Shown here: in pieces, positions 3,039 through 48,029 of the stretch
Position numbering within the stretch: position 1 is the first letter of the stretch
Layout: every line of letters starts with the position of its first letter
IMG/VR virus record: IMGVR_UViG_3300005676_000020
Span: 1-64,000 of that record
Length of the DNA stretch: 64,000 bases
Reading direction: 5' to 3' (one strand)
Source: a virus
The notes under the pieces: model-generated
The model's input: only the letters and a program-made list of their open reading frames with translations
What the model was told of the DNA's origin: nothing
The model's database searches: none
Program-made: the position numbers and the translations under genes

Positions 3039-4565
3039 ATGTCAAACAAAAAAATCAAGAGGCTTTTCTTCGACATAGAAACGTCTCCAAATGTAGGACT
3101 TTTTTGGTCAGCCGGTATAAAGCAGACCATAGACTATGATAACATTCTTGAGGAGAGAGCTATCATCTGTATTTGTTTCAAGTGGGAGGGTAAAGGAGTT
3201 CAGTATCTTACTTGGGATAAACATCATAATGATAAGTCGATGCTAGAGAAGTTTATCAAGATTGCCAACACGGCCGATGAGCTTGTTGGACACAACTGTG
3301 TTGAGATAAACACCCCTGTTTTAACTCAGGATTTGAAATGGGTGAAGGCGGGAGATTTGGTTGTGGGGCAGAAACTCGCAGGGTTTGAGGAAGGTAATAG
3401 ACCCGGATTTCCTGTAAGAGATAGAGATAGTAGATGGAATAGTGGATATAAAAGGAAGTTAATAGGTTGTGAGGTAACAAATTTTACTATAGAGGAAGCC
3501 GATTGTTTGCGGGTAACTTTTGATAATGGTGATTCAATAATCACTACAAGGAATCATTACTGGTTATCTATGGGTATAAAAGATAATTATCAAAAATGGA
3601 GAATGTCCTCAGACCTTAAACCAGGTCATAGAATCATTAAGTATTTTTCCCCTTGGGAGAAAGAAGATTCTTATGAAGGTGGTTGGTTATCAGGTTTTAT
3701 ATCGGGAGAGGGTACATTAAAGGCAGGAGGAGATTCTGGACTCTCGATAGATTTTTGCCAGAGACCTGGAGTTACCTGGAGCAAGGCATTAGAAACATGT
3801 AGGGAGCTTGGTATCAATGTTTCTAAAAAGAGAGCCCCTAAAACGGGAGGTCTTGGAAAACAGGATACTTTGTATACGGGGATTACTGGTGGTAAGTTTA
3901 AAACTTTAGAATATATTGGACGATTAGAGATTGATAGATTTTTACAAAAAATTAATTGGAACAAACTCGGGTATCTTAAAGGAAAAGGTCTGGAAGTTGC
4001 AAAAGTTGTAAAAGTTGAAGAGGTTGGGGTTAGGAAAGTAGCTGTATTTTCTACTAGTTCCAAGACATTTTTTGGAGCTGGATATCCAATGCATAATTGT
4101 GACAAGTACGATTTGGCCTGGATAAGAACCCGGTGCCTGTTTCACCGAATACCTATGTTCCCTTCGTATACGACAGTGGACACACTGAAAGTCTCCAGAA
4201 GTAAATTTAGGTTTAACTCCAACCGCCTGGACTATATCTCAAAGTACCTTGGAATAGGTAAGAAGATAAAGACCGGCGGTTTTGACTTATGGAAAAAGGT
4301 TATGCTTAACGATGCTGCAGCTCTCAAGAAAATGGTCAACTACTGTAAAGGTGACGTAAGGCTTCTTGAGGATGTTTACTCAGAGATGAGAAATCACATA
4401 CCGCCAAAGACCAGTGTGACCCAGGAACGTCGTAGCTGCCCTGAGTGTGGTTCCAATCACTCCATTATCCATAAGAGAAGGATTTCGGGCGCCGGCTTGG
4501 TCAAAATACAGATGCAATGCCAGGACTGCGGAAAGTTCAATACGATACCGGGAACTAAGAAATAA
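3039..4565 (+). CDS. DnaQ/RNase H-like 3'-5' exonuclease with C-terminal Zn ribbon, intein-containing
   Basis: ExoI FFDIETSP, ExoII VGHN|CDKYD (split by the intein), ExoIII YCKGDV, and CPEC...CQDC. The spliced product would be 241 aa. Confidence 0.85.
   Translation: MSNKKIKRLFFDIETSPNVGLFWSAGIKQTIDYDNILEERAIICICFKWEGKGVQYLTWDKHHNDKSMLEKFIKIANTADELVGHNCVEINTPVLTQDLKWVKAGDLVVGQKLAGFEEGNRPGFPVRDRDSRWNSGYKRKLIGCEVTNFTIEEADCLRVTFDNGDSIITTRNHYWLSMGIKDNYQKWRMSSDLKPGHRIIKYFSPWEKEDSYEGGWLSGFISGEGTLKAGGDSGLSIDFCQRPGVTWSKALETCRELGINVSKKRAPKTGGLGKQDTLYTGITGGKFKTLEYIGRLEIDRFLQKINWNKLGYLKGKGLEVAKVVKVEEVGVRKVAVFSTSSKTFFGAGYPMHNCDKYDLAWIRTRCLFHRIPMFPSYTTVDTLKVSRSKFRFNSNRLDYISKYLGIGKKIKTGGFDLWKKVMLNDAAALKKMVNYCKGDVRLLEDVYSEMRNHIPPKTSVTQERRSCPECGSNHSIIHKRRISGAGLVKIQMQCQDCGKFNTIPGTKK
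3297..4097 (+). mobile_element. intein (267 aa) with LAGLIDADG-type endonuclease region
   Basis: Begins CVEINTPVLT, block B TTRNHYW, LAGLIDADG-like WLSGFISGEG, ends PMHN followed by Cys+1. Confidence 0.9.
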
Positions 4566-42369: not shown

Positions 42370-42597
42370 TCATATTTTATGTGTTTCCTGCAGATACAGC
42401 TCTAGCATAGTAAGCAGAAATTCCCTAGCCTGAATCTGACTTCTGAAATATAGAACCTCGGCTTTGAACCCGTATTCCTCGCATATCAACCTTACCCCTC
42501 TCGGAGGTACTCCCGCTTGCTGACCTCCTTTCGGAGCTTCGGGGAACCGTTCGAACCTTACAGTGTTTAATATGTGTTCTGGTAGCATAGTTGTCAT
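42370..42597 (-). CDS. stand-alone class I release-factor (GGQ) domain protein, ArfB/PrfH-like mini protein
   Basis: 75 aa from ATG 42597. KGGQQAG...GVRL...G....E....RSQ..ARE follows the RF domain 3 pattern GGQ..N....AVRL.H.PTG..V.....RSQ..N. Confidence 0.7.
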   Translation of the reverse strand: MTTMLPEHILNTVRFERFPEAPKGGQQAGVPPRGVRLICEEYGFKAEVLYFRSQIQAREFLLTMLELYLQETHKI

Positions 42598-42703: not shown

Positions 42704-43336
42704 TTATAACAATCTCAGCACCTTGATTGAACCTCCTGTGATTTTCGGAAAGACGTCCCATCCGCCAGGGGCTTGATCTGCGGGAATTCTATCCATCTCC
42801 ACTTGTACATCAAACACTCTGGGTTGAGGTAGCAGTTTGTTTATAAGATATTTGAATGCTTTGCCCTTTTCTGCGCCATACTCATTTCTCATCTTTACCT
42901 CATTGAGTTGTTCAGAGTTAATAGAATCCAGGATGTGAATTACATCCTCTTCATTGAACCTCTTCTCATTAAGAGACTGTGCTGTTTTAAAACCTTCGAG
43001 GAAACCGCAATATGCATAGTCATCGAAGTCATTTACTGCATACTCAGCCGCCAACTCCTCAACATCAACCCATCCAATCTTCTTACAATCTTCTTCTGAT
43101 AAAGCAGAGAAGTCTACTGAAGGTAGTTCAGGAATACCTGCTATAATTTTCTTTTGGTTTCTTTCATCAATGTCGTTGAGGTTATCCACTTGCCAAATTG
43201 TCCATTCACCTGTAGTTAGTTTCTCTGCTACATGGTACGGGAAAATGTCTCGTACATCTGGTTCATAACTAACCAGTATCGGCTGTGGTAACATCATTAT
43301 CAATTGTATATTCATAGTCTTTTTTTTATTTAGCAC
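42704..43336 (-). CDS. hypothetical protein
   Basis: Long open frame, probably starting at MNIQLI (43315). No recognisable catalytic motif. Confidence 0.6.
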   Translation of the reverse strand: MLNKKKTMNIQLIMMLPQPILVSYEPDVRDIFPYHVAEKLTTGEWTIWQVDNLNDIDERNQKKIIAGIPELPSVDFSALSEEDCKKIGWVDVEELAAEYAVNDFDDYAYCGFLEGFKTAQSLNEKRFNEEDVIHILDSINSEQLNEVKMRNEYGAEKGKAFKYLINKLLPQPRVFDVQVEMDRIPADQAPGGWDVFPKITGGSIKVLRLL

Positions 43337-43598
43337 CCTCTTGTCTTATATTGTATGTTTAAGCTCAACGCTCTATACACCTTTATAAGAGTAGGGTCAC
43401 GTAGTTAATAGCAGTTAATTACTCTGCATTTATACTCCAATAAAGCAGTAACATTAACTACTTGCTGAGAACTTGTTCATGTTGTAGAGGTAAGTTGCTG
43501 AAGCGACTCTCTTAGCACTCCTTTCTCAAGGGAACAACACGCTACGTCTTACAACGTATATCCAATTTTTAAAGTGGTTTTCGACATTCAGTCCACTA

Positions 43599-43629
43599 TT
43601 GTTTATTCAAACAATATTTTGTATATTTG
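43599..43629 (+). promoter_or_regulatory. Bacteroidota-type promoter for the GIY-YIG gene
   Basis: TTG (43599) - 20 nt - TATATTTG (43622-43629) - 4 nt - ATG. Confidence 0.7.
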
Positions 43630-43633
43630 TAAT

Positions 43634-44173
43634 ATGAACTCTGGCATTTACAAGATAACTAATACTGTAACAGGAGATTTTTATATTGGTTCCTCATGTC
43701 AATTAAACAGACGTAGGAGAAATCATTTTATATCTCTTGAAAGAAACATTAGTCATTCAAAAATATTACAAAGAGCATATAACAAATATGGTAAAGATAA
43801 TTTGTTTTTTGAAGTATTAGCTATATGTCCAAAAGAATATCTACTAAAACTTGAACAATGGTTTATTAATGAACTTAAACCAAAGTACAACATTTGTAAT
43901 ATAAATCCAAATACAACGGAAGGATATAATCATACTAATGAAGATAAAGCAAAAATGAGACAAATAAAATTATCTCAAAATGCTGTAAAATTATATCAGT
44001 ATAATGATAATCAACAACTTATAAAAGTCTGGGATTGTTGTAATGATTATGCTAACTATTACAAAGTATCACCAGCAGCTTTACATAAAGCATGTAGAAA
44101 GGGTCAGAAATGTGCAGGTTTCAAAGTATCTAAAACACCTATTCACCTGCACGATTTCAGTAACCCTCGTTGA
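43634..44173 (+). CDS. GIY-YIG homing endonuclease with C-terminal NUMOD-like DNA-binding segments
   Basis: MNSGIYKITN...FYIGSS...R...H...LQRAYNKYG...LEQ.FI....PKYN (I-TevI-like). Start reassigned to ATG 43634. Visibly more AT-rich than its flanks. Confidence 0.9.
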   Translation: MNSGIYKITNTVTGDFYIGSSCQLNRRRRNHFISLERNISHSKILQRAYNKYGKDNLFFEVLAICPKEYLLKLEQWFINELKPKYNICNINPNTTEGYNHTNEDKAKMRQIKLSQNAVKLYQYNDNQQLIKVWDCCNDYANYYKVSPAALHKACRKGQKCAGFKVSKTPIHLHDFSNPR

Positions 44174-44526
44174 CTTCTTAGTGTGTTGTATTCTTTAAGA
44201 GATTAGCAGCCTCACTGTTCGTAATACCCTCATTGAATTGTACTATCAGTATGTCAACTACGCCCAGTTTATGGATTATCCCGGGCGAAAATCTATTGTG
44301 TTTGGTAGCCGACCTTTCCGCACCTTATCTAACCCCTGATAGCATCTGCATCACTCGGATTAGGGGCTGACCAATAACACGGTACATTTATGGTCATTTA
44401 ACGGATGGGCTTTAAGCGTCTATAAACCCGGACATCTTACCGCCTAAGCGTCCTGTACCACCTCACACAATAGAGTTTTACTGACATCTTGCTGATCCGC
44501 CCCATGTCAGTCTCTTCATATATAAT

Positions 44527-44559
44527 AAAAAACCCCTCCGGAGAGGGGTCTGTTTTTTT
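44527..44559. terminator. bidirectional intrinsic terminator after the RNR gene
   Basis: A6-CCCCTC-CGGA-GAGGGG followed by a T-tract. Confidence 0.8.
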
Positions 44560-44570
44560 CAAAGTTGATT

Positions 44571-47500
44571 TTAAGAACCGCATACACCGCCTTTGGTAAG
44601 GTCGCATATGTCAAAGAATTCTTCTTCAAACTCCTGCCCTACAGACAGGATAGCTTCCTTGTATGGTACTGGGGTAAGAGGTTGTCCTCCCCTTGCACCA
44701 TCCGGGTAGCAGGTGAACCCACGAAGTCTGTGAGCGTACTTAGCCAGTACTTTGGCGAAGTTTACTATCTCACCTTCGTTGTTCAGGTCACTACCCCAGG
44801 CCGGTAGATTTATCGTAGAACTAATTGACATGTCAACGTAGTCCTGTAAGTCTGCCTGGAACTTTATCCTTCTTTCGTAATCTGATGCAAGGTCGAGAGC
44901 TGTCTCAATCTTGTCAGGGTTTATTCCGAAGTGGTCTATCATTATTCTCGCCGTACCGTCTACGACGTACTGATATACCCACTGACTTCTTCCTTTTAAA
45001 TATCTCCTCTTATAAGCAACTGCTATCAGAGGTTCTGCACTTGTCGTGGTACCGGCCAGGATGCCAATGCTTCCTGTTGGCGCTATGGCCCTGTTAGCTA
45101 CCGGGCGGCTTATTCCAAGCCTGTCAGAGAACGTTCTTGACACATAGTCGGAGTGGTTCTTGTATACTGTCATCCACTCACGGAGTTCGTCTGTCATCTC
45201 GTACTTGTAGTTGCGCTTAAGCAACCACTCGTGAAGACCCATGAGGCCTAATCCTATCCTCCGGTTCTTCTCTCTCACCTTATATACTTTCTCGTAGGGT
45301 AAGTCGGCTACCATCGTCCCGCATATGAGGAACTTCATGGCGAGCTCAACCACTTCTACAAGCTCTTTTTTGCTTTCTATATTGGCAAAGTTCAAGCTGC
45401 CAAGGTTGCATACGTCACTGTCGTCTTCAGAAGTAACCTCTGTACAATTGGATATAACCACCCCTTCGGCCATGAAAGAGTGCTCCTCAACCTTAACGTC
45501 GCAGCAGTATACATCCTGAACTTCTCCAAGAGACAAATCTGTGATTTTGATGCTGCTTTTGCGGTAAGCTTCGTGGTTCTTGACTTTGAGACGGAAAGTT
45601 GGAATCATTTCTGCAAACTTGCCAATATACGATCCCATCACGTTTAAGAAGTAGCATTCCCCTTCTCCAGTATACCCACTTTTTCCACTCCTGTAGATGT
45701 TGGACAGGATGCCGTAGCTTTCCAGAGATCTCCGAACACCTTGTAAAAAATCGTAGTGTTTGGAACAGAGTCTCACCCTATGTTGTTTGTCACAGTAGCT
45801 ACCGTCAGAGTCGAAAAGGCCTGCCAAGAAGCTAGTATTTGTGAGATTATAAGGAAATTGATCTTTTGCCAACCCCAGGAAGGTTTGAGAAGGGACATAC
45901 ATTCTAGTATAACCTCTTGGTGTCAAAGGATTTATTGATCTGAACAGTGTTTGGTCCATCCGGGTTAAGCACTGCTTCTTTTCATCATTACATAGCGACA
46001 GTTCAGCCCCACCATCTTTTCTGAAACTTCCGTCACCGTATATAAACCCTAAGGTGTATGAGTGTTCATCGAACTTCTCCGGATTGCTTTCAGGAAGGGA
46101 TGTATGAACAACATCTCCGATTTTCAGATCCTTTGCTTTAACTCTTTGTATTTCTGCAAGTTTTCGACGATGTCCTTTCCCAGAATATCTTTCAATAAGA
46201 AATTCGTGGTCAAAGTCAGCCTCTATTTCCCTACCGCCGGTCATCTCTACCATAATAGTGTTGACGCTAGACTTCGTTTTGACAAATCTGGTCTTGGCCC
46301 ACCGTTTGCCTGTCCAAACCTCTACTTCTTTTCCTAAGGTGTCTGATATCTGTTTATACCCCTGATTGGTCAGTATCCAAGTTTTTGCACTGACCGGAGC
46401 ATTCCTTAGCGTCTCCTTCTCTTTTTCGTAGAAGTTGAAGCTGAAACCGGGTTCTCCTGTACTAAGTGCCTGTTTAGCGTTCTCGAGGAACACGCTGCCC
46501 ATGTCTCCGGTTCTCTTATAGTTCTCCAGCCATTCAGTATCGTAGTTCACTGAAATATTGGTCATGTCCAGAGGCGCTGGAAAGTTAAAGTCCTTCTCTT
46601 TGAGGTCACCTATGGTAAGGTCTGTTCCAGATACTTTCATATTGTACCAGTCCTTAGCATGTATAAACTCGTGGACGTCAACGTGTTTCCAATTCAGGCT
46701 GGCGTAAATAGCTGAGCGCCTTGAGCCTCCCTGCATCACCTCCCTGCCAATCTCGTTAATCATCTTCATCTTTGGAACAGGCCCAGATGCCAGTCCCCCG
46801 GTTCTGTTAATAACCGAATTCTTAGGTCTGTACACGGAGTAGTCAGAACCTATACCTCCACCTGTCATTAGACAGGACTCCGCCTTCCAGGAGAGGTTAG
46901 CCCAGTCTTCCCGGGAGTCATTCTCACATTTCAGCAGGAAACAGTTATAAGTGTCTATTCCACCATCAATTACAAACCTTTGGTGTACAGGCTCGTACGG
47001 GCAATAAACTTCATCTTCTCCACAAAACTCAATCTTTACAACTTTAAAACCGTAGAAGTTTTCACCCTCTTGGAAGTTCTGCATGAAGATTTCATGTCCT
47101 TCATAAACCTTACCTCCTAAGTCTACGTCCCTGGTTTGGGATCTAAGTTCCCCAGTTATCACTAACCCAGCAAAAGCCGCATGTTTCCTAAACCACTCCA
47201 GGTTTTCTTTCTTTACAGAGAAAAGTTTTCCAGCGCCACCATCGGCAGCTATCCAACCACGTATGAAGGAGGCTATATACTCCACAGATTTGTTTTCTGG
47301 AAGCTCTTTCCATTTCTCTTTTTTATAGCCAAAATATAAGCAAGGGTCTCCATTTGCCGAATCCGGGTAAGTCACTGTACCCTCTGAGGATAAAAGTTCA
47401 AGATACTTTTTATCCTTCTCTGCACAAAGTCTTAGTTGACCGTTCCTGTTCCCGTCCCCAAAAACAAATCCGTGAGCGAATCCTGCGCTGTCAAACCCTG

Positions 47501-48029
47501 CAGAGAATGTATTAGCAGGTACGACGTCACCAACTCTAAGATCGTAGGTATCGGAGCCGTCTATTAACGGCCAGTGGTGAGTTCTGGTGGCTTTGACTTC
47601 CCAAGTATGGTTCTGGTGACCTCTGAAAGAACAAAATGTTATTCTGTTCAATGCTTGTTTTCCATGATTGTGGAATGTTGCCGGGTAATAATTGCCGTCC
47701 ACGGGGGATAGTACATTTAACGTCTTCCCCACCGAAGATTTTAAACTTACCCAACCACTATCTGTCAAAACGTTGGTATCTCCAGACAAACAGTTGTTAA
47801 AGGCTTTAAAAGGCCTTCCTGCGTAGTAAAGGTACCTGCCACCAGGTATGAACTTCATCTCTGTAATAAGGAGTTTAAGGTGCTCCTTTTCACCCCGGGA
47901 CATTTTATCCCGACAAACGTCTTCTACTAGGACATCGGCTAGCTTATCCCATGTCTCACAACCCTCATGTCTGTACTTGTGGTTGAAAATATCTTCTCCA
48001 AACTTGTTCCTAAAGAAAGATTTCTGCAT
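44571..48029 (-). CDS. nrdJ: class II (B12-dependent) ribonucleotide reductase with two inteins
   Basis: FIPGGR, NN|CF, GGGIG, RRSA, GEPG, RNA|CTE, CNLGS, GLGLMG, IAPTG motifs and a C-terminal C....GG.C pair. No small subunit gene nearby. The spliced product would be 552 aa. Confidence 0.88.
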   Translation of the reverse strand: MQKSFFRNKFGEDIFNHKYRHEGCETWDKLADVLVEDVCRDKMSRGEKEHLKLLITEMKFIPGGRYLYYAGRPFKAFNNCLSGDTNVLTDSGWVSLKSSVGKTLNVLSPVDGNYYPATFHNHGKQALNRITFCSFRGHQNHTWEVKATRTHHWPLIDGSDTYDLRVGDVVPANTFSAGFDSAGFAHGFVFGDGNRNGQLRLCAEKDKKYLELLSSEGTVTYPDSANGDPCLYFGYKKEKWKELPENKSVEYIASFIRGWIAADGGAGKLFSVKKENLEWFRKHAAFAGLVITGELRSQTRDVDLGGKVYEGHEIFMQNFQEGENFYGFKVVKIEFCGEDEVYCPYEPVHQRFVIDGGIDTYNCFLLKCENDSREDWANLSWKAESCLMTGGGIGSDYSVYRPKNSVINRTGGLASGPVPKMKMINEIGREVMQGGSRRSAIYASLNWKHVDVHEFIHAKDWYNMKVSGTDLTIGDLKEKDFNFPAPLDMTNISVNYDTEWLENYKRTGDMGSVFLENAKQALSTGEPGFSFNFYEKEKETLRNAPVSAKTWILTNQGYKQISDTLGKEVEVWTGKRWAKTRFVKTKSSVNTIMVEMTGGREIEADFDHEFLIERYSGKGHRRKLAEIQRVKAKDLKIGDVVHTSLPESNPEKFDEHSYTLGFIYGDGSFRKDGGAELSLCNDEKKQCLTRMDQTLFRSINPLTPRGYTRMYVPSQTFLGLAKDQFPYNLTNTSFLAGLFDSDGSYCDKQHRVRLCSKHYDFLQGVRRSLESYGILSNIYRSGKSGYTGEGECYFLNVMGSYIGKFAEMIPTFRLKVKNHEAYRKSSIKITDLSLGEVQDVYCCDVKVEEHSFMAEGVVISNCTEVTSEDDSDVCNLGSLNFANIESKKELVEVVELAMKFLICGTMVADLPYEKVYKVREKNRRIGLGLMGLHEWLLKRNYKYEMTDELREWMTVYKNHSDYVSRTFSDRLGISRPVANRAIAPTGSIGILAGTTTSAEPLIAVAYKRRYLKGRSQWVYQYVVDGTARIMIDHFGINPDKIETALDLASDYERRIKFQADLQDYVDMSISSTINLPAWGSDLNNEGEIVNFAKVLAKYAHRLRGFTCYPDGARGGQPLTPVPYKEAILSVGQEFEEEFFDICDLTKGGVCGS
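45447..46397 (-). mobile_element. intein 2 of RNR (317 aa), Pro1 / class 3-like, LAGLIDADG endonuclease
   Basis: PVSAKTWILT..., LGFIYGDG and FLAGLFDSDG, block F DVYCCDV, ends VISN|C. Removal restores RNACTE. Confidence 0.88.
46944..47792 (-). mobile_element. intein 1 of RNR (283 aa), LAGLIDADG endonuclease
   Basis: CLSGDTNVLT..., TRTHHW, HGFVFGDG and FIRGWIAADG, EVYC, ends DTYN|C. Confidence 0.9.

What the first reader, a model, noticed from the sequence alone, without database searches (positions are those of the whole stretch)
43400..44515. Large ornate non-coding RNA candidate in an otherwise gene-dense genome
Seen (plus-strand coordinates, RNA read on minus): stems 44480-87/44504-11; a 10-bp long-range helix 44465-74/44292-301 closing a multibranch domain with inner stems 44368-73/44391-96 and 44333-40/44359-66; stems 44261-67/44281-87, 44253-58/44169-74, 43534-40/43479-85 and 43453-61/43401-09; and a loop UUGAGAA (43523-29) complementary to UUCUCAG (43465-71), i.e. 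a pseudoknot. Without the endonuclease insert the RNA is about 575 nt. Known: ROOL and GOLLD are phage-associated ornate RNAs of several hundred nt, often near tRNAs, of unknown function. Inference: this is a ROOL-like RNA or a new class. The family link is from recall and is unverified.
Basis: partly seen in the sequence, partly recalled or inferred. Interest (0 to 1): 0.82.

Follow-up and report, generated by a model that had tools for sequence, protein, structure and literature searches.

The report
Phage structured RNA with endonuclease insert
This gap holds a real gene for a roughly 600-base folded non-coding RNA from an uncatalogued, phage-only family, here interrupted by a selfish homing-endonuclease gene. 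Its one studied relative lies in a region reported as very highly transcribed in a crAss-like phage, and its job is still unknown.

Summary
Five of them, and the pseudoknot, are supported by compensatory changes in relatives.

The unit runs on the minus strand from about 44515 to 43330. Natural relatives without the insert (L082, L214, L217) show that a 582-bp cassette (43571-44152) replaces a variable peripheral hairpin. The cassette carries a low-GC GIY-YIG homing endonuclease on the opposite strand.

The 3' half contains a very conserved core: a 7-bp helix, a hairpin with loop CUUGAGAAA, and a loop-to-strand pseudoknot. One 21-mer of this core occurs in at least 120 IMG/VR contigs. Among deposited phages, a search with the 3' half found a relative only in Cellulophaga phage phi14:2, in what is most likely its reported abundant early "long non-coding RNA".

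A short form of the core sits just upstream of phage tRNA and tRNA-like genes. The long form precedes unrelated ORFs.

It is not ROOL, GOLLD, an intron or an HDV-like ribozyme: Rfam gives nothing. This scan has already met the same family on other phage DNA.

Function is unknown. My best guess is a stable RNA that binds a conserved host factor linked to translation or RNA processing. A cis-acting leader is nearly as likely.

The parts
43330..44515 (-). Whole RNA unit (about 1186 nt with the insert, about 604 nt without)
   Evidence: Contigs of other samples lose similarity at 44513-44519 and at 43330 (loose ends). The conserved 3' end GGGUGCUAA is at 43338-43330. G-U wobble pairs in relatives fix the strand.
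44530..44551 (.). Bidirectional intrinsic terminator after the ribonucleotide reductase gene, just upstream of the RNA
   Evidence: Terminator scan on both strands; RNR identified by Pfam.
44480..44511 (-). 5' hairpin (8-bp stem)
   Evidence: Exact complement and present in the MFE fold. Not seen in L082, so untested by comparison.
44292..44474 (-). 10-bp long-range helix (44465-74 with 44292-301) closing a multibranch domain that varies between phages
   Evidence: The helix sequence is kept in L082, but the enclosed domain is about 75 nt there instead of about 150.
44261..44287 (-). Hairpin with conserved loop GAUAAUCCAUAAA
   Evidence: The stem covaries: CGCCCGG/CUGGGCG, CAUUCAG/CUGAGUG, CAUCCAG/CUGGAUG, CAUUCAG/CUGAAUG.
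44169..44258 (-). Helix GUUGAC/GUCAAC enclosing a block that is 94-100% identical to L082
   Evidence: The helix has a C-G to U-A change in L214 and is a 10-bp version in L217.
44153..44169 (-). Conserved motif CGAGGGUUACUGAAAUC, the last RNA sequence before the insert; it also encodes the endonuclease C-terminus and stop on the other strand
   Evidence: Shared with L082, L142/L212 and L214.
43571..44152 (.). Inserted cassette replacing the variable peripheral hairpin (Px) of relatives; GC about 25%
   Evidence: Px is GAACCAUA/UAUGGUUC in L082 and GAAACUGU/ACAGUUUC in L142 and L214. Composition. A contig joins 43542 to 44153 with 106 other letters between.
43634..44173 (+). GIY-YIG homing endonuclease gene (179 aa from the ATG), antisense to the RNA
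   Evidence: Pfam PF01541 and PHROG homing-endonuclease families. The same gene at about 99% identity has different flanks in DNA runs X2 and X4.
43543..43558 (-). GNRA-tetraloop hairpin UACGUU-GUAA-GACGUA directly 5' of the core
   Evidence: All 44 long-form relatives have a GNRA loop here, and the inner 3 bp are 100% canonical with 4-5 pair types.
43455..43543 (-). Conserved core: P1 (43540-34 with 43485-79), hairpin UCC/GGA with loop CUUGAGAAA (43533-43519), variable hairpin, and pseudoknot UUGAGAA (43529-23) with UUCUCAG (43471-65)
   Evidence: Covariance model R1 gives 64.8 bits, E 4e-11. Loop variants in L218, L219 and L220 carry the matching change in the partner.
43401..43461 (-). Helix P-b (GUAGUUAAU/AUUAACUAC) closing a variable region
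   Evidence: Mean 7.15 of 8 pairs in 33 relatives against 6.46 for shuffled partners (maximum 6.91). Compensatory variants are listed.
43330..43397 (-). Terminal helix P-c (ACCCU..UCUUAUA with UAUAAGA..AGGGU) followed by GCUAA
   Evidence: Outer 5 bp include C-G to U-A and U-A to A-U changes. The inner helix averages 5.45 of 6 pairs against 4.84 shuffled, maximum 5.11.
42704..43315 (-). First downstream gene (203 aa, no known family), starting 15 nt after the RNA
   Evidence: Genes after the RNA in other phages are unrelated to it.

Best explanation
The interval is one gene for a multi-domain structured non-coding RNA, read on the minus strand from about 44515 to 43330. It belongs to an uncatalogued family found almost only in phage contigs. 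The phage at hand, and the one cultured carrier, point to Bacteroidota hosts.

A free-standing GIY-YIG homing endonuclease has inserted on the opposite strand. It sits in a peripheral helix whose length varies freely among relatives, so the conserved parts of the RNA are left intact.

The functional heart is an 85-130-nt core: a three-way junction whose hairpin loop CUUGAGAAA pairs with UUCUCA just 3' of the closing helix. Phages use this core in two ways. Alone, it is a cassette placed a few bases before tRNA and tRNA-like genes. In the long form, as here, it is embedded between extra 5' and 3' domains.

Shown: homology, fold, strand, unit boundaries, the insertion, and the restriction to phages.

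Inferred (about 0.35-0.4): the RNA is made as, or cut out into, a stable abundant RNA. Its invariant core acts by binding a conserved host or phage partner that belongs to the translation or stable-RNA-processing apparatus. It would be a decoy or recruiting scaffold rather than a regulator of one particular gene.
For: Identity and fold:
- The neighbouring 203-aa protein has homologues. The closest one (55% identity, L082) is preceded by the same RNA without the endonuclease, and that RNA is 94% identical over 155 nt.
It hits only 9 contigs, all MAGs of mixed phyla, among 185,579 species genomes.
- CM R1 finds 108 copies in 100 loci.
- Covariation supports P1, the small hairpin and the pseudoknot, the GNRA hairpin, P-b and P-c and the 5'-domain helices.
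- Three of three contigs picked only for a mutated loop 1 carry the exact compensating base in loop 2.

Not gene-specific: the ORFs after 46 long-form copies fall into unrelated singletons.

Context:
- Of 103 unique cores, 34 are long-form, 24 are followed within 30 nt by a GUCAGGUGGC-type tRNA 5' end, and 11 follow a tRNA T-arm.
- phi14:2 carries a long-form copy (L215 1601-1861, CM 76 bits) followed by its own terminator-like hairpin and U-run (my reading of the sequence), with a tmRNA in the next long gap.
- The phi14:2 paper reports two long intergenic regions transcribed above most genes, from the earliest time point and persistently.
- Here the RNA heads a two-gene unit whose second product has a GGQ motif.

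Contigs of two RNA libraries hold the core, the 5' domain and an insert-free junction. This shows presence only, not proof of transcription.
Against: - No partner is known, and nothing here shows binding.
- No transcript ends or levels are available for this phage, because the sequencing runs are kept only as contigs.
- In 17 or more long-form loci an ORF starts 13-35 nt after the RNA, which suits a 5' leader as well as a separate RNA.
- Assigning the phi14:2 copy to the paper's "g004-g005 junction" is my inference from gene spacing, since the paper's gene table was not available.
- This phage has only one tRNA and no tmRNA, so the link to translation is by association across phages.
- If the RNA is transcribed through the 582-nt antisense insert, its function here may be impaired.
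Confidence: 0.55

Rival explanations
1. A cis-acting 5' leader module. The folded core is transcribed ahead of untranslated RNAs (tRNAs, tRNA-like RNAs) or an operon. It would secure their synthesis or survival by one of three routes: making RNA polymerase resistant to termination (as HK022 put or the rrn nut-like leaders do), blocking 5' decay, or guiding 5' processing.
For: - The core lies 2-12 nt before tRNA or tRNA-like 5' ends.
- The long form ends 13-35 nt before an ATG in many loci, including this one.
- In this window it directly follows an intrinsic terminator.
- A GNRA hairpin directly precedes the core.
- A motif RGTTCTTTGAAAWW, boxA-like from memory, lies upstream on the same strand of 17 of 127 cores, about 5 times background.
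Against: - The phi14:2 copy is followed by its own terminator-like hairpin about 170 nt before the next gene.
- There is one copy per genome here, so it is not a general operon leader.
- Several hundred bases of extra conserved domains are not needed for a simple leader.
- The downstream genes are unrelated.
Confidence: 0.3
2. A self-cleaving ribozyme, either a distant HDV-like or theta type or a new class. It would cut at its own 5' edge and so trim the tRNA that precedes it.
For: - The conserved unit starts exactly at the G that opens a 7-bp P1, about 4 nt after the preceding tRNA in arrays.
- The fold is a nested pseudoknot.
- Theta ribozymes are a precedent for small phage ribozymes next to tRNAs.
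Against: - No Rfam ribozyme family matches.
- The position where HDV-like ribozymes need a catalytic C is AAAUGAG in long forms and AGAGG in some short forms.
- The hairpin at the P3/L3 position varies freely in sequence and length.
- Most copies are not preceded by a tRNA.
Confidence: 0.07
3. A group I or group II intron carrying a homing endonuclease.
For: The region is a structured RNA with GNRA loops and a pseudoknot, with an endonuclease gene sitting in a peripheral loop.
Against: - No Intron_gpI or Intron_gpII match even at E<=10.
- The upstream gene ends with its own stop and terminator, and the downstream gene has its own start.
- Relatives sit between unrelated genes.
- The endonuclease is antisense to the RNA and absent from most relatives.
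Confidence: 0.02
4. A member of ROOL or GOLLD.
For: Similar size and ornate look, the phage setting, and nearness of relatives to tRNA genes.
Against: No match to RF03087, RF01998 or any other family in the window or in insert-free relatives.
Confidence: 0.01
5. Not an RNA gene. The conservation would reflect DNA dragged along by the mobile endonuclease (co-conversion tracts) or DNA-level regulatory sites.
For: - The 155 nt next to the insert are far more similar to L082 than the neighbouring protein is.
- The endonuclease, with about 55 nt of the core side, recurs in other flanks.
Against: - Compensatory and wobble-only substitutions are strand-specific and fit RNA pairing; for example GUGUUGUU/GGCGGCAC has four G-U pairs.
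- At least 120 contigs hold the core, and the endonuclease is absent from most of the relatives examined.
- The homologous region of phi14:2 is reported as highly transcribed.
Confidence: 0.03

Closest known systems
The abundant early "long non-coding RNA" of Cellulophaga crAss-like phage phi14:2 (g004-g005 junction; Drobysheva et al., bioRxiv 10.1101/2020.03.07.982082)
   Same: The phi14:2 region (KC821624 about 3100-3360) has the homologous 3' half: GNRA hairpin, P1, hairpin with loop CUUGAGAAA (its stem CAC/GUG is compensatory to UCC/GGA), UUCUCAGC, P-b, P-c and GGGUGCUAA. CM R1 scores it at 76 bits. The paper reports no function.
   Different: phi14:2 has a different upstream domain, no endonuclease, and a terminator-like hairpin with a U-run downstream. 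The paper describes only transcript abundance, not a fold or a family. The match of coordinates to its gene numbering is my inference.
ROOL (RF03087) and GOLLD (RF01998)
   Same: Several-hundred-nucleotide ornate RNAs linked to phages, often near tRNA genes, of unknown function.
   Different: No detectable similarity in sequence or secondary structure. This family has a small invariant core that also occurs on its own.
Theta (minimal HDV-like) ribozymes of gut phages (PMC10879173)
   Same: Small pseudoknotted phage RNAs placed next to tRNA genes, with a 7-bp first helix starting with G.
   Different: Theta ribozymes abut tRNA 3' ends within about 1 nt and need a catalytic C. Here the C is not conserved, the P3/L3 equivalent is variable, and the commoner link is to the 5' side of the next tRNA.
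HK022 put RNA and rrn/lambda nut leaders (from general knowledge, not tested)
   Same: Folded RNA elements at the start of transcription units that act on the transcribing polymerase. lambda boxB is a hairpin with a GNRA-like loop.
   Different: No sequence relation was tested here, and no evidence of antitermination exists. This is an analogy for the cis-leader rival only.
Homing endonuclease genes inside stable-RNA genes (rRNA and tRNA introns; free-standing seg/mob genes of T4)
   Same: A mobile endonuclease sits in a highly conserved RNA gene, in a place where extra length is tolerated.
   Different: It is not inside an intron, it is antisense to the RNA, and its last codons and stop are supplied by conserved RNA sequence (44153-44173).

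Membership tests
Unnamed phage RNA family typified by the phi14:2 intergenic RNA | Core: 7-bp P1 starting with G, a 3-bp hairpin with loop CUUGAGAAA, a variable hairpin, and loop pairing with UUCUCA 3' of P1 | tested here: met
   CM R1 gives 64.8 bits, E 4e-11 at 43455-43543. 98% of cells are paired and 8 of 16 pairs have compensatory changes.
Unnamed phage RNA family typified by the phi14:2 intergenic RNA | Long form: GNRA hairpin 5' of P1, helix P-b, terminal helix P-c ending in GGGUGCUAA | tested here: met
   Alignment A1 of 44 long forms including the window and phi14:2.
Unnamed phage RNA family typified by the phi14:2 intergenic RNA | Accumulates as an abundant transcript during infection | not testable with these tools
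   Reported for phi14:2 only. For this phage, contigs of RNA libraries hold parts of it, but contigs cannot show transcription, strand or ends.
ROOL (RF03087) / GOLLD (RF01998) | Match to the family covariance model | tested here: not met
   No hit at gathering score, at E<=10 on 43200-44700, or at E<=1 on insert-free relatives L214 and L217 and on phi14:2.
Group I / group II introns | Match to RF00028 or RF00029, and interruption of a host gene whose exons join into one reading frame or RNA | tested here: not met
   No hit. The flanking genes are complete and unrelated among relatives.
HDV-like / theta ribozymes | Catalytic C at the start of J4/2, a conserved L3 with the P1.1 pairing, and position within about 1 nt of a tRNA 3' end | tested here: not met
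   The equivalent segment is AAAUGAG or AGAGG without a conserved C. The hairpin before P1' is variable. No Rfam ribozyme hit.
Gene-specific riboswitch or leader | Constant association with one gene family downstream | tested here: not met
   46 downstream ORFs form almost only singletons by BLASTP.

The most novel reading that the evidence does not exclude
The invariant pseudoknotted core is a new functional RNA class in its own right. One possibility is a catalytic RNA. Another is an element that captures a central host machine (RNA polymerase, ribosome, RNase P or another RNase). Phages with probable Bacteroidota hosts would place it ahead of their tRNA-type genes and elaborate it into a 400-800-nt RNA, so that it controls how phage stable RNAs are made or how host translation is taken over.
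Probability: 0.15. Interest if true: 0.85.

Novelty: new variant of a known kind. Interest (0 to 1): 0.62.

Why it matters
Large structured RNAs of unknown function are rare, and each has eventually pointed to new biology. This family is common in uncultured phages: at least 120 IMG/VR contigs share one exact 21-mer. It is absent from Rfam and essentially absent from cellular genomes.

It also has a cultured model. In Cellulophaga phage phi14:2, the region holding the relative is reported to be transcribed above most genes.

The fold is now defined well enough to design tests: a core with a pseudoknot proven by covariation, a GNRA hairpin, two closing helices, and sites that tolerate insertions. 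Those tests include compensatory mutants, pull-downs and structural work.

This window adds two things:
- a longer 5' domain, shared with at least three other phages;
- a homing endonuclease that has invaded a non-coding RNA gene outside any intron. This marks the flanking RNA sequence as a conserved homing target and shows where the RNA tolerates 580 extra bases.

Tried and rejected
- Eighty IMG/VR loci with close relatives of the ribonucleotide reductase C-terminus show no trace of the RNA (nhmmer), and their next gene follows directly. The RNA is therefore not linked to RNR.
- The 203-aa protein has no relative in IMG/VR by pattern search. The large protein database was needed to find L082.
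- blastn of the whole interval against deposited phages at the default E-value found nothing. Only a shorter query at E<=10 found phi14:2.
- I mapped the core onto the HDV-like fold. The topology is similar, but there is no conserved catalytic C or L3, so I rejected it.
- I looked for a 5' partner (AGCACC-type) of the terminal GGUGCUA. It occurs in 3 of 45 loci, so there is no general terminal helix.
- Helices bridging the insert (44189-79 with 43544-34, and 44207-196 with 43514-03) are about what chance gives for one 11-mer, and relatives show no covariation. They remain unresolved.
- A variant contig with 10 differences in 44297-44440 has 7 in unpaired positions, 2 that preserve pairs and 1 that breaks a pair. 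This is compatible with the fold but weak.
- Depths and uncovered parts in the laid runs cannot be used. All four runs are contigs. The depth-760 contig of a relative's core in an RNA library may sum many phages or DNA carry-over.
- A sigma-70 promoter scan finds nothing useful. The host is probably a Bacteroidota member with a different promoter type.
- Supplementary tables of the phi14:2 paper are not held.
Full report
**Setting.** The window is the first 64 kb of a 142-kb IMG/VR phage record. The closest cultured matches for one replication protein are Flavobacterium phages. The DNA occurs in sludge and bioreactor metagenomes.

On the minus strand, a class II-type ribonucleotide reductase gene with intein domains (44571-48029; Pfam) ends in a bidirectional intrinsic terminator at 44530-44551. 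The next minus-strand gene, 203 aa with no known family, starts at 43315. The roughly 1.2 kb between them holds only one convincing ORF. It lies on the plus strand and is a GIY-YIG homing endonuclease (ATG 43634, stop 44173). Its GC is about 25%, against 40-47% for both flanks.

**The observation.** The minimum-energy folds recover most of them. Energy alone is unimpressive: z = -2.6 for the 5' part and -1.4 for the 3' part. The case therefore rests on relatives.

**Finding relatives.** Loci chosen through the reductase gene do not contain the RNA. Homologues of the downstream 203-aa protein do.
- The closest one (55% identity, locus L082) is preceded by about 600 nt of the same non-coding sequence without the endonuclease.
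- In L082, 155 nt are 94% identical to 44306-44153, far above the protein identity.
- The 10-bp long-range helix is kept around an inner domain half as long.
- The 3' half is recognisable.

Scans with conserved words then found full-length relatives in L142/L212, L214 (a 167-kb contig) and L216/L217.

**The insertion.** In all of these relatives, the motif CGAGGGUUAMUGAAAUCC is followed by a helix, Px, that closes an insert of 40-150 nt. Px is GAACCAUA/UAUGGUUC in L082 and GAAACUGU/ACAGUUUC in L142 and L214. After it come AAAAACC and a GNRA hairpin.

In the window, Px is replaced by the 582-bp endonuclease cassette (43571-44152). Contigs from other samples support this:
- A contig of RNA library X15 joins 43542 to 44153 with 106 other letters between.
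- An X16 contig carries the L082-type junction.
- DNA runs X2 and X4 hold the endonuclease at about 99% identity with different flanks, so it is mobile.
- In the same runs, similarity to the window stops at 44513-44519 and at 43330.

Without the cassette the unit is about 604 nt.

**The family.** It occurs in only 9 contigs among 185,579 species genomes, all of them MAGs of mixed phyla. A search of about 50,700 deposited phages with the 3' half (at E<=10) matched only Cellulophaga phage phi14:2.

The copies come in two forms.
- **Short form, about 90-130 nt.** It consists of P1 (GUGUUGU/ACAACAC), a small hairpin with loop CUUGAGAAA, a variable hairpin, and a second hairpin whose stem covaries and whose loop is (C)UUCUCA. 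It lies in phage tRNA arrays, 2-12 nt before tRNA genes or unusual 145-155-nt tRNA-Leu-like genes, and sometimes about 4 nt after the previous tRNA.
- **Long form, as in the window.** It adds a GNRA hairpin 5' of P1, leaves UUCUCAGC single-stranded in a junction, and continues with helix P-b, helix P-c and an invariant GGGUGCUAA. An A-rich spacer and an ORF often follow.

The ORFs after long-form copies are unrelated to one another. This genome holds one copy, one tRNA and no tmRNA.

**Structure tests.**
- A covariance model of the core (R1, from 66 sequences) finds 108 copies in 100 loci. The window scores 64.8 bits and phi14:2 scores 76 bits.
- The first set was selected with the loop-1 word, so loop 1 could not vary in it. 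I therefore scanned for copies with a changed G in that loop. All three contigs found carry the exact complementary change in loop 2: UUUAGAA with UUCUAG in L218, and UUGAUAA with UUAUCA in L219 and L220. A fourth, shifted example turned up in L198.
- On the resulting alignment, 98% of cells pair. Eight of 16 pairs have changes on both sides, three of them in the pseudoknot. No shuffle out of 500 reaches any measure, and slid controls give 0-3 such pairs.
- All 44 long forms have a GNRA loop on a covarying stem.
- P-b and P-c exceed every partner shuffle and show many compensatory variants.
- In the 5' domain, the hairpin 44261-44287 and the helix 44253-58/44169-74 covary among four phages.
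- Wobble pairs, for example GUGUUGUU/GGCGGCAC in L187, fix the transcribed strand as the window's minus strand.
- The 5' hairpin 44480-44511 and the inner stems of the multibranch domain are specific to this phage and remain untested.

**What it is not.**
- Rfam 15 gives no match for the window, for the region at E<=10, or for five short- and long-form loci other than their tRNAs. It gives none for insert-free full-length relatives either. ROOL, GOLLD, group I and II introns, and the known small ribozymes are thus excluded at model level.
- The core has an HDV-like order of strands. However, it lacks a conserved catalytic C, and the hairpin at the P3/L3 position is variable.
- It is not a riboswitch for one gene.

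**Closest known.** phi14:2 has a long-form copy at about 3100-3360 of KC821624 (L215 1601-1861). Its small hairpin stem CAC/GUG is compensatory to the usual UCC/GGA. By my reading of the sequence, a terminator-like hairpin with a U-run follows it. The next long gap in phi14:2 scores as a tmRNA (46 bits against a gathering score of 47, E 1.7e-15).

The phi14:2 paper reports that two long intergenic regions, the g004-g005 and g005-g006 junctions, are transcribed rightward above most genes. They are transcribed from the earliest time point and do not decline, and their function is unknown. The gene flanked by the only pair of consecutive long gaps is GenBank gp010. This makes the first gap the family member and the second the tmRNA. 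That mapping is my inference, because the paper's gene table was not available.

Earlier follow-ups in this scan reached the same family and the same closest relative on other phage DNA. I re-tested the phi14:2 link and the loop-loop covariation independently here.

**How it may work.**

*Shown:* a phage-restricted, multi-domain RNA with an invariant pseudoknotted core. The core is reused ahead of stable-RNA genes. The RNA tolerates large insertions at Px and other peripheral sites.

*Inferred:* the sequence of the core is conserved far beyond what pairing requires, and the downstream genes vary. The family member in phi14:2 appears to have its own terminator and, by the mapping above, high persistent abundance. 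The neighbours across phages are tRNAs, tmRNA and, here, a small GGQ-motif protein. From this I favour a stable RNA that binds a conserved partner of the translation or RNA-processing apparatus, at about 0.35-0.4.

A cis-acting leader (antitermination, 5' protection or processing guide) is nearly as likely, at about 0.3. It is supported by the position just before tRNA 5' ends and ORF starts, and by a boxA-like or promoter-like motif upstream of some copies. A ribozyme remains possible, at under 0.1.

**Verdict.** The ROOL/GOLLD link is not. This is a real, uncatalogued and experimentally tractable RNA family. The local novelty is a homing endonuclease lodged in its variable helix.

Noticed in passing
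L215 2532-3003 (KC821624 about 4031-4502): The second long intergenic region of Cellulophaga phage phi14:2 scores as a tmRNA (RF00023, 46 bits against a gathering score of 47, E 1.7e-15). One of the two reported abundant "long non-coding RNAs" of that phage is therefore probably a phage tmRNA.
   Followed up: partly
L187 1578-1722 and 2067-2221; similar genes after short-form cores in L101, L111, L112, L115, L125, L130, L163: These are 145-155-nt tRNA-Leu-like genes. They have a normal acceptor, D and T arms (GUCAGGUGGCGGAAUUGGUAGACGC ... ACAGGUUCGAAUCCUGUCCUGACU) but 50-70 extra nt where the anticodon and variable arms should be. ARAGORN does not call them.
   Followed up: partly
window 42370-42594 (-): A 75-aa protein (MTTMLPEH...) with a KGGQQAG motif and no Pfam hit is the second gene of the unit headed by the RNA. 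It could be a minimal GGQ (release-factor or ArfB-like) protein.
   Followed up: no
L214, L217, L082, L187, L093, L107, L152 and others, 17-620 nt upstream of cores; degenerate copy at window about 44553-44567 (-): The motif RGTTCTTTGAAAWW lies on the same strand upstream of 17 of 127 cores, about 5 times the background density. It could be a boxA-like antitermination signal or a promoter element.
   Followed up: partly
window 44153-44173: The last seven codons and the stop of the GIY-YIG endonuclease are encoded by the antisense of the conserved RNA motif GUCAACGAGGGUUACUGAAAUC. The insertion thus borrowed its 3' end from the target.
   Followed up: partly
L089, L128, L139, L156 directly after short-form cores: Another conserved non-coding sequence (UAGUGAACUUCGGUACCCAUACCGCUGACGAUGGGCUAAGUAAGAUACAAUUCC...) follows the core in four contigs. 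It may be a further uncatalogued phage RNA.
   Followed up: no
window 44571-48029 (-): The ribonucleotide reductase gene carries intein and LAGLIDADG domains (Pfam). Together with the GIY-YIG gene, this makes a cluster of selfish elements in 5 kb.
   Followed up: no
L084 2885-3421 and L085 625-1161; L083 9312-10118 and 11388-12026: Other homing endonuclease genes (GIY-YIG, HNH) lie within 1-2 kb of the RNA or of the 203-aa gene family in related contigs. These loci appear to be repeated homing targets.
   Followed up: no
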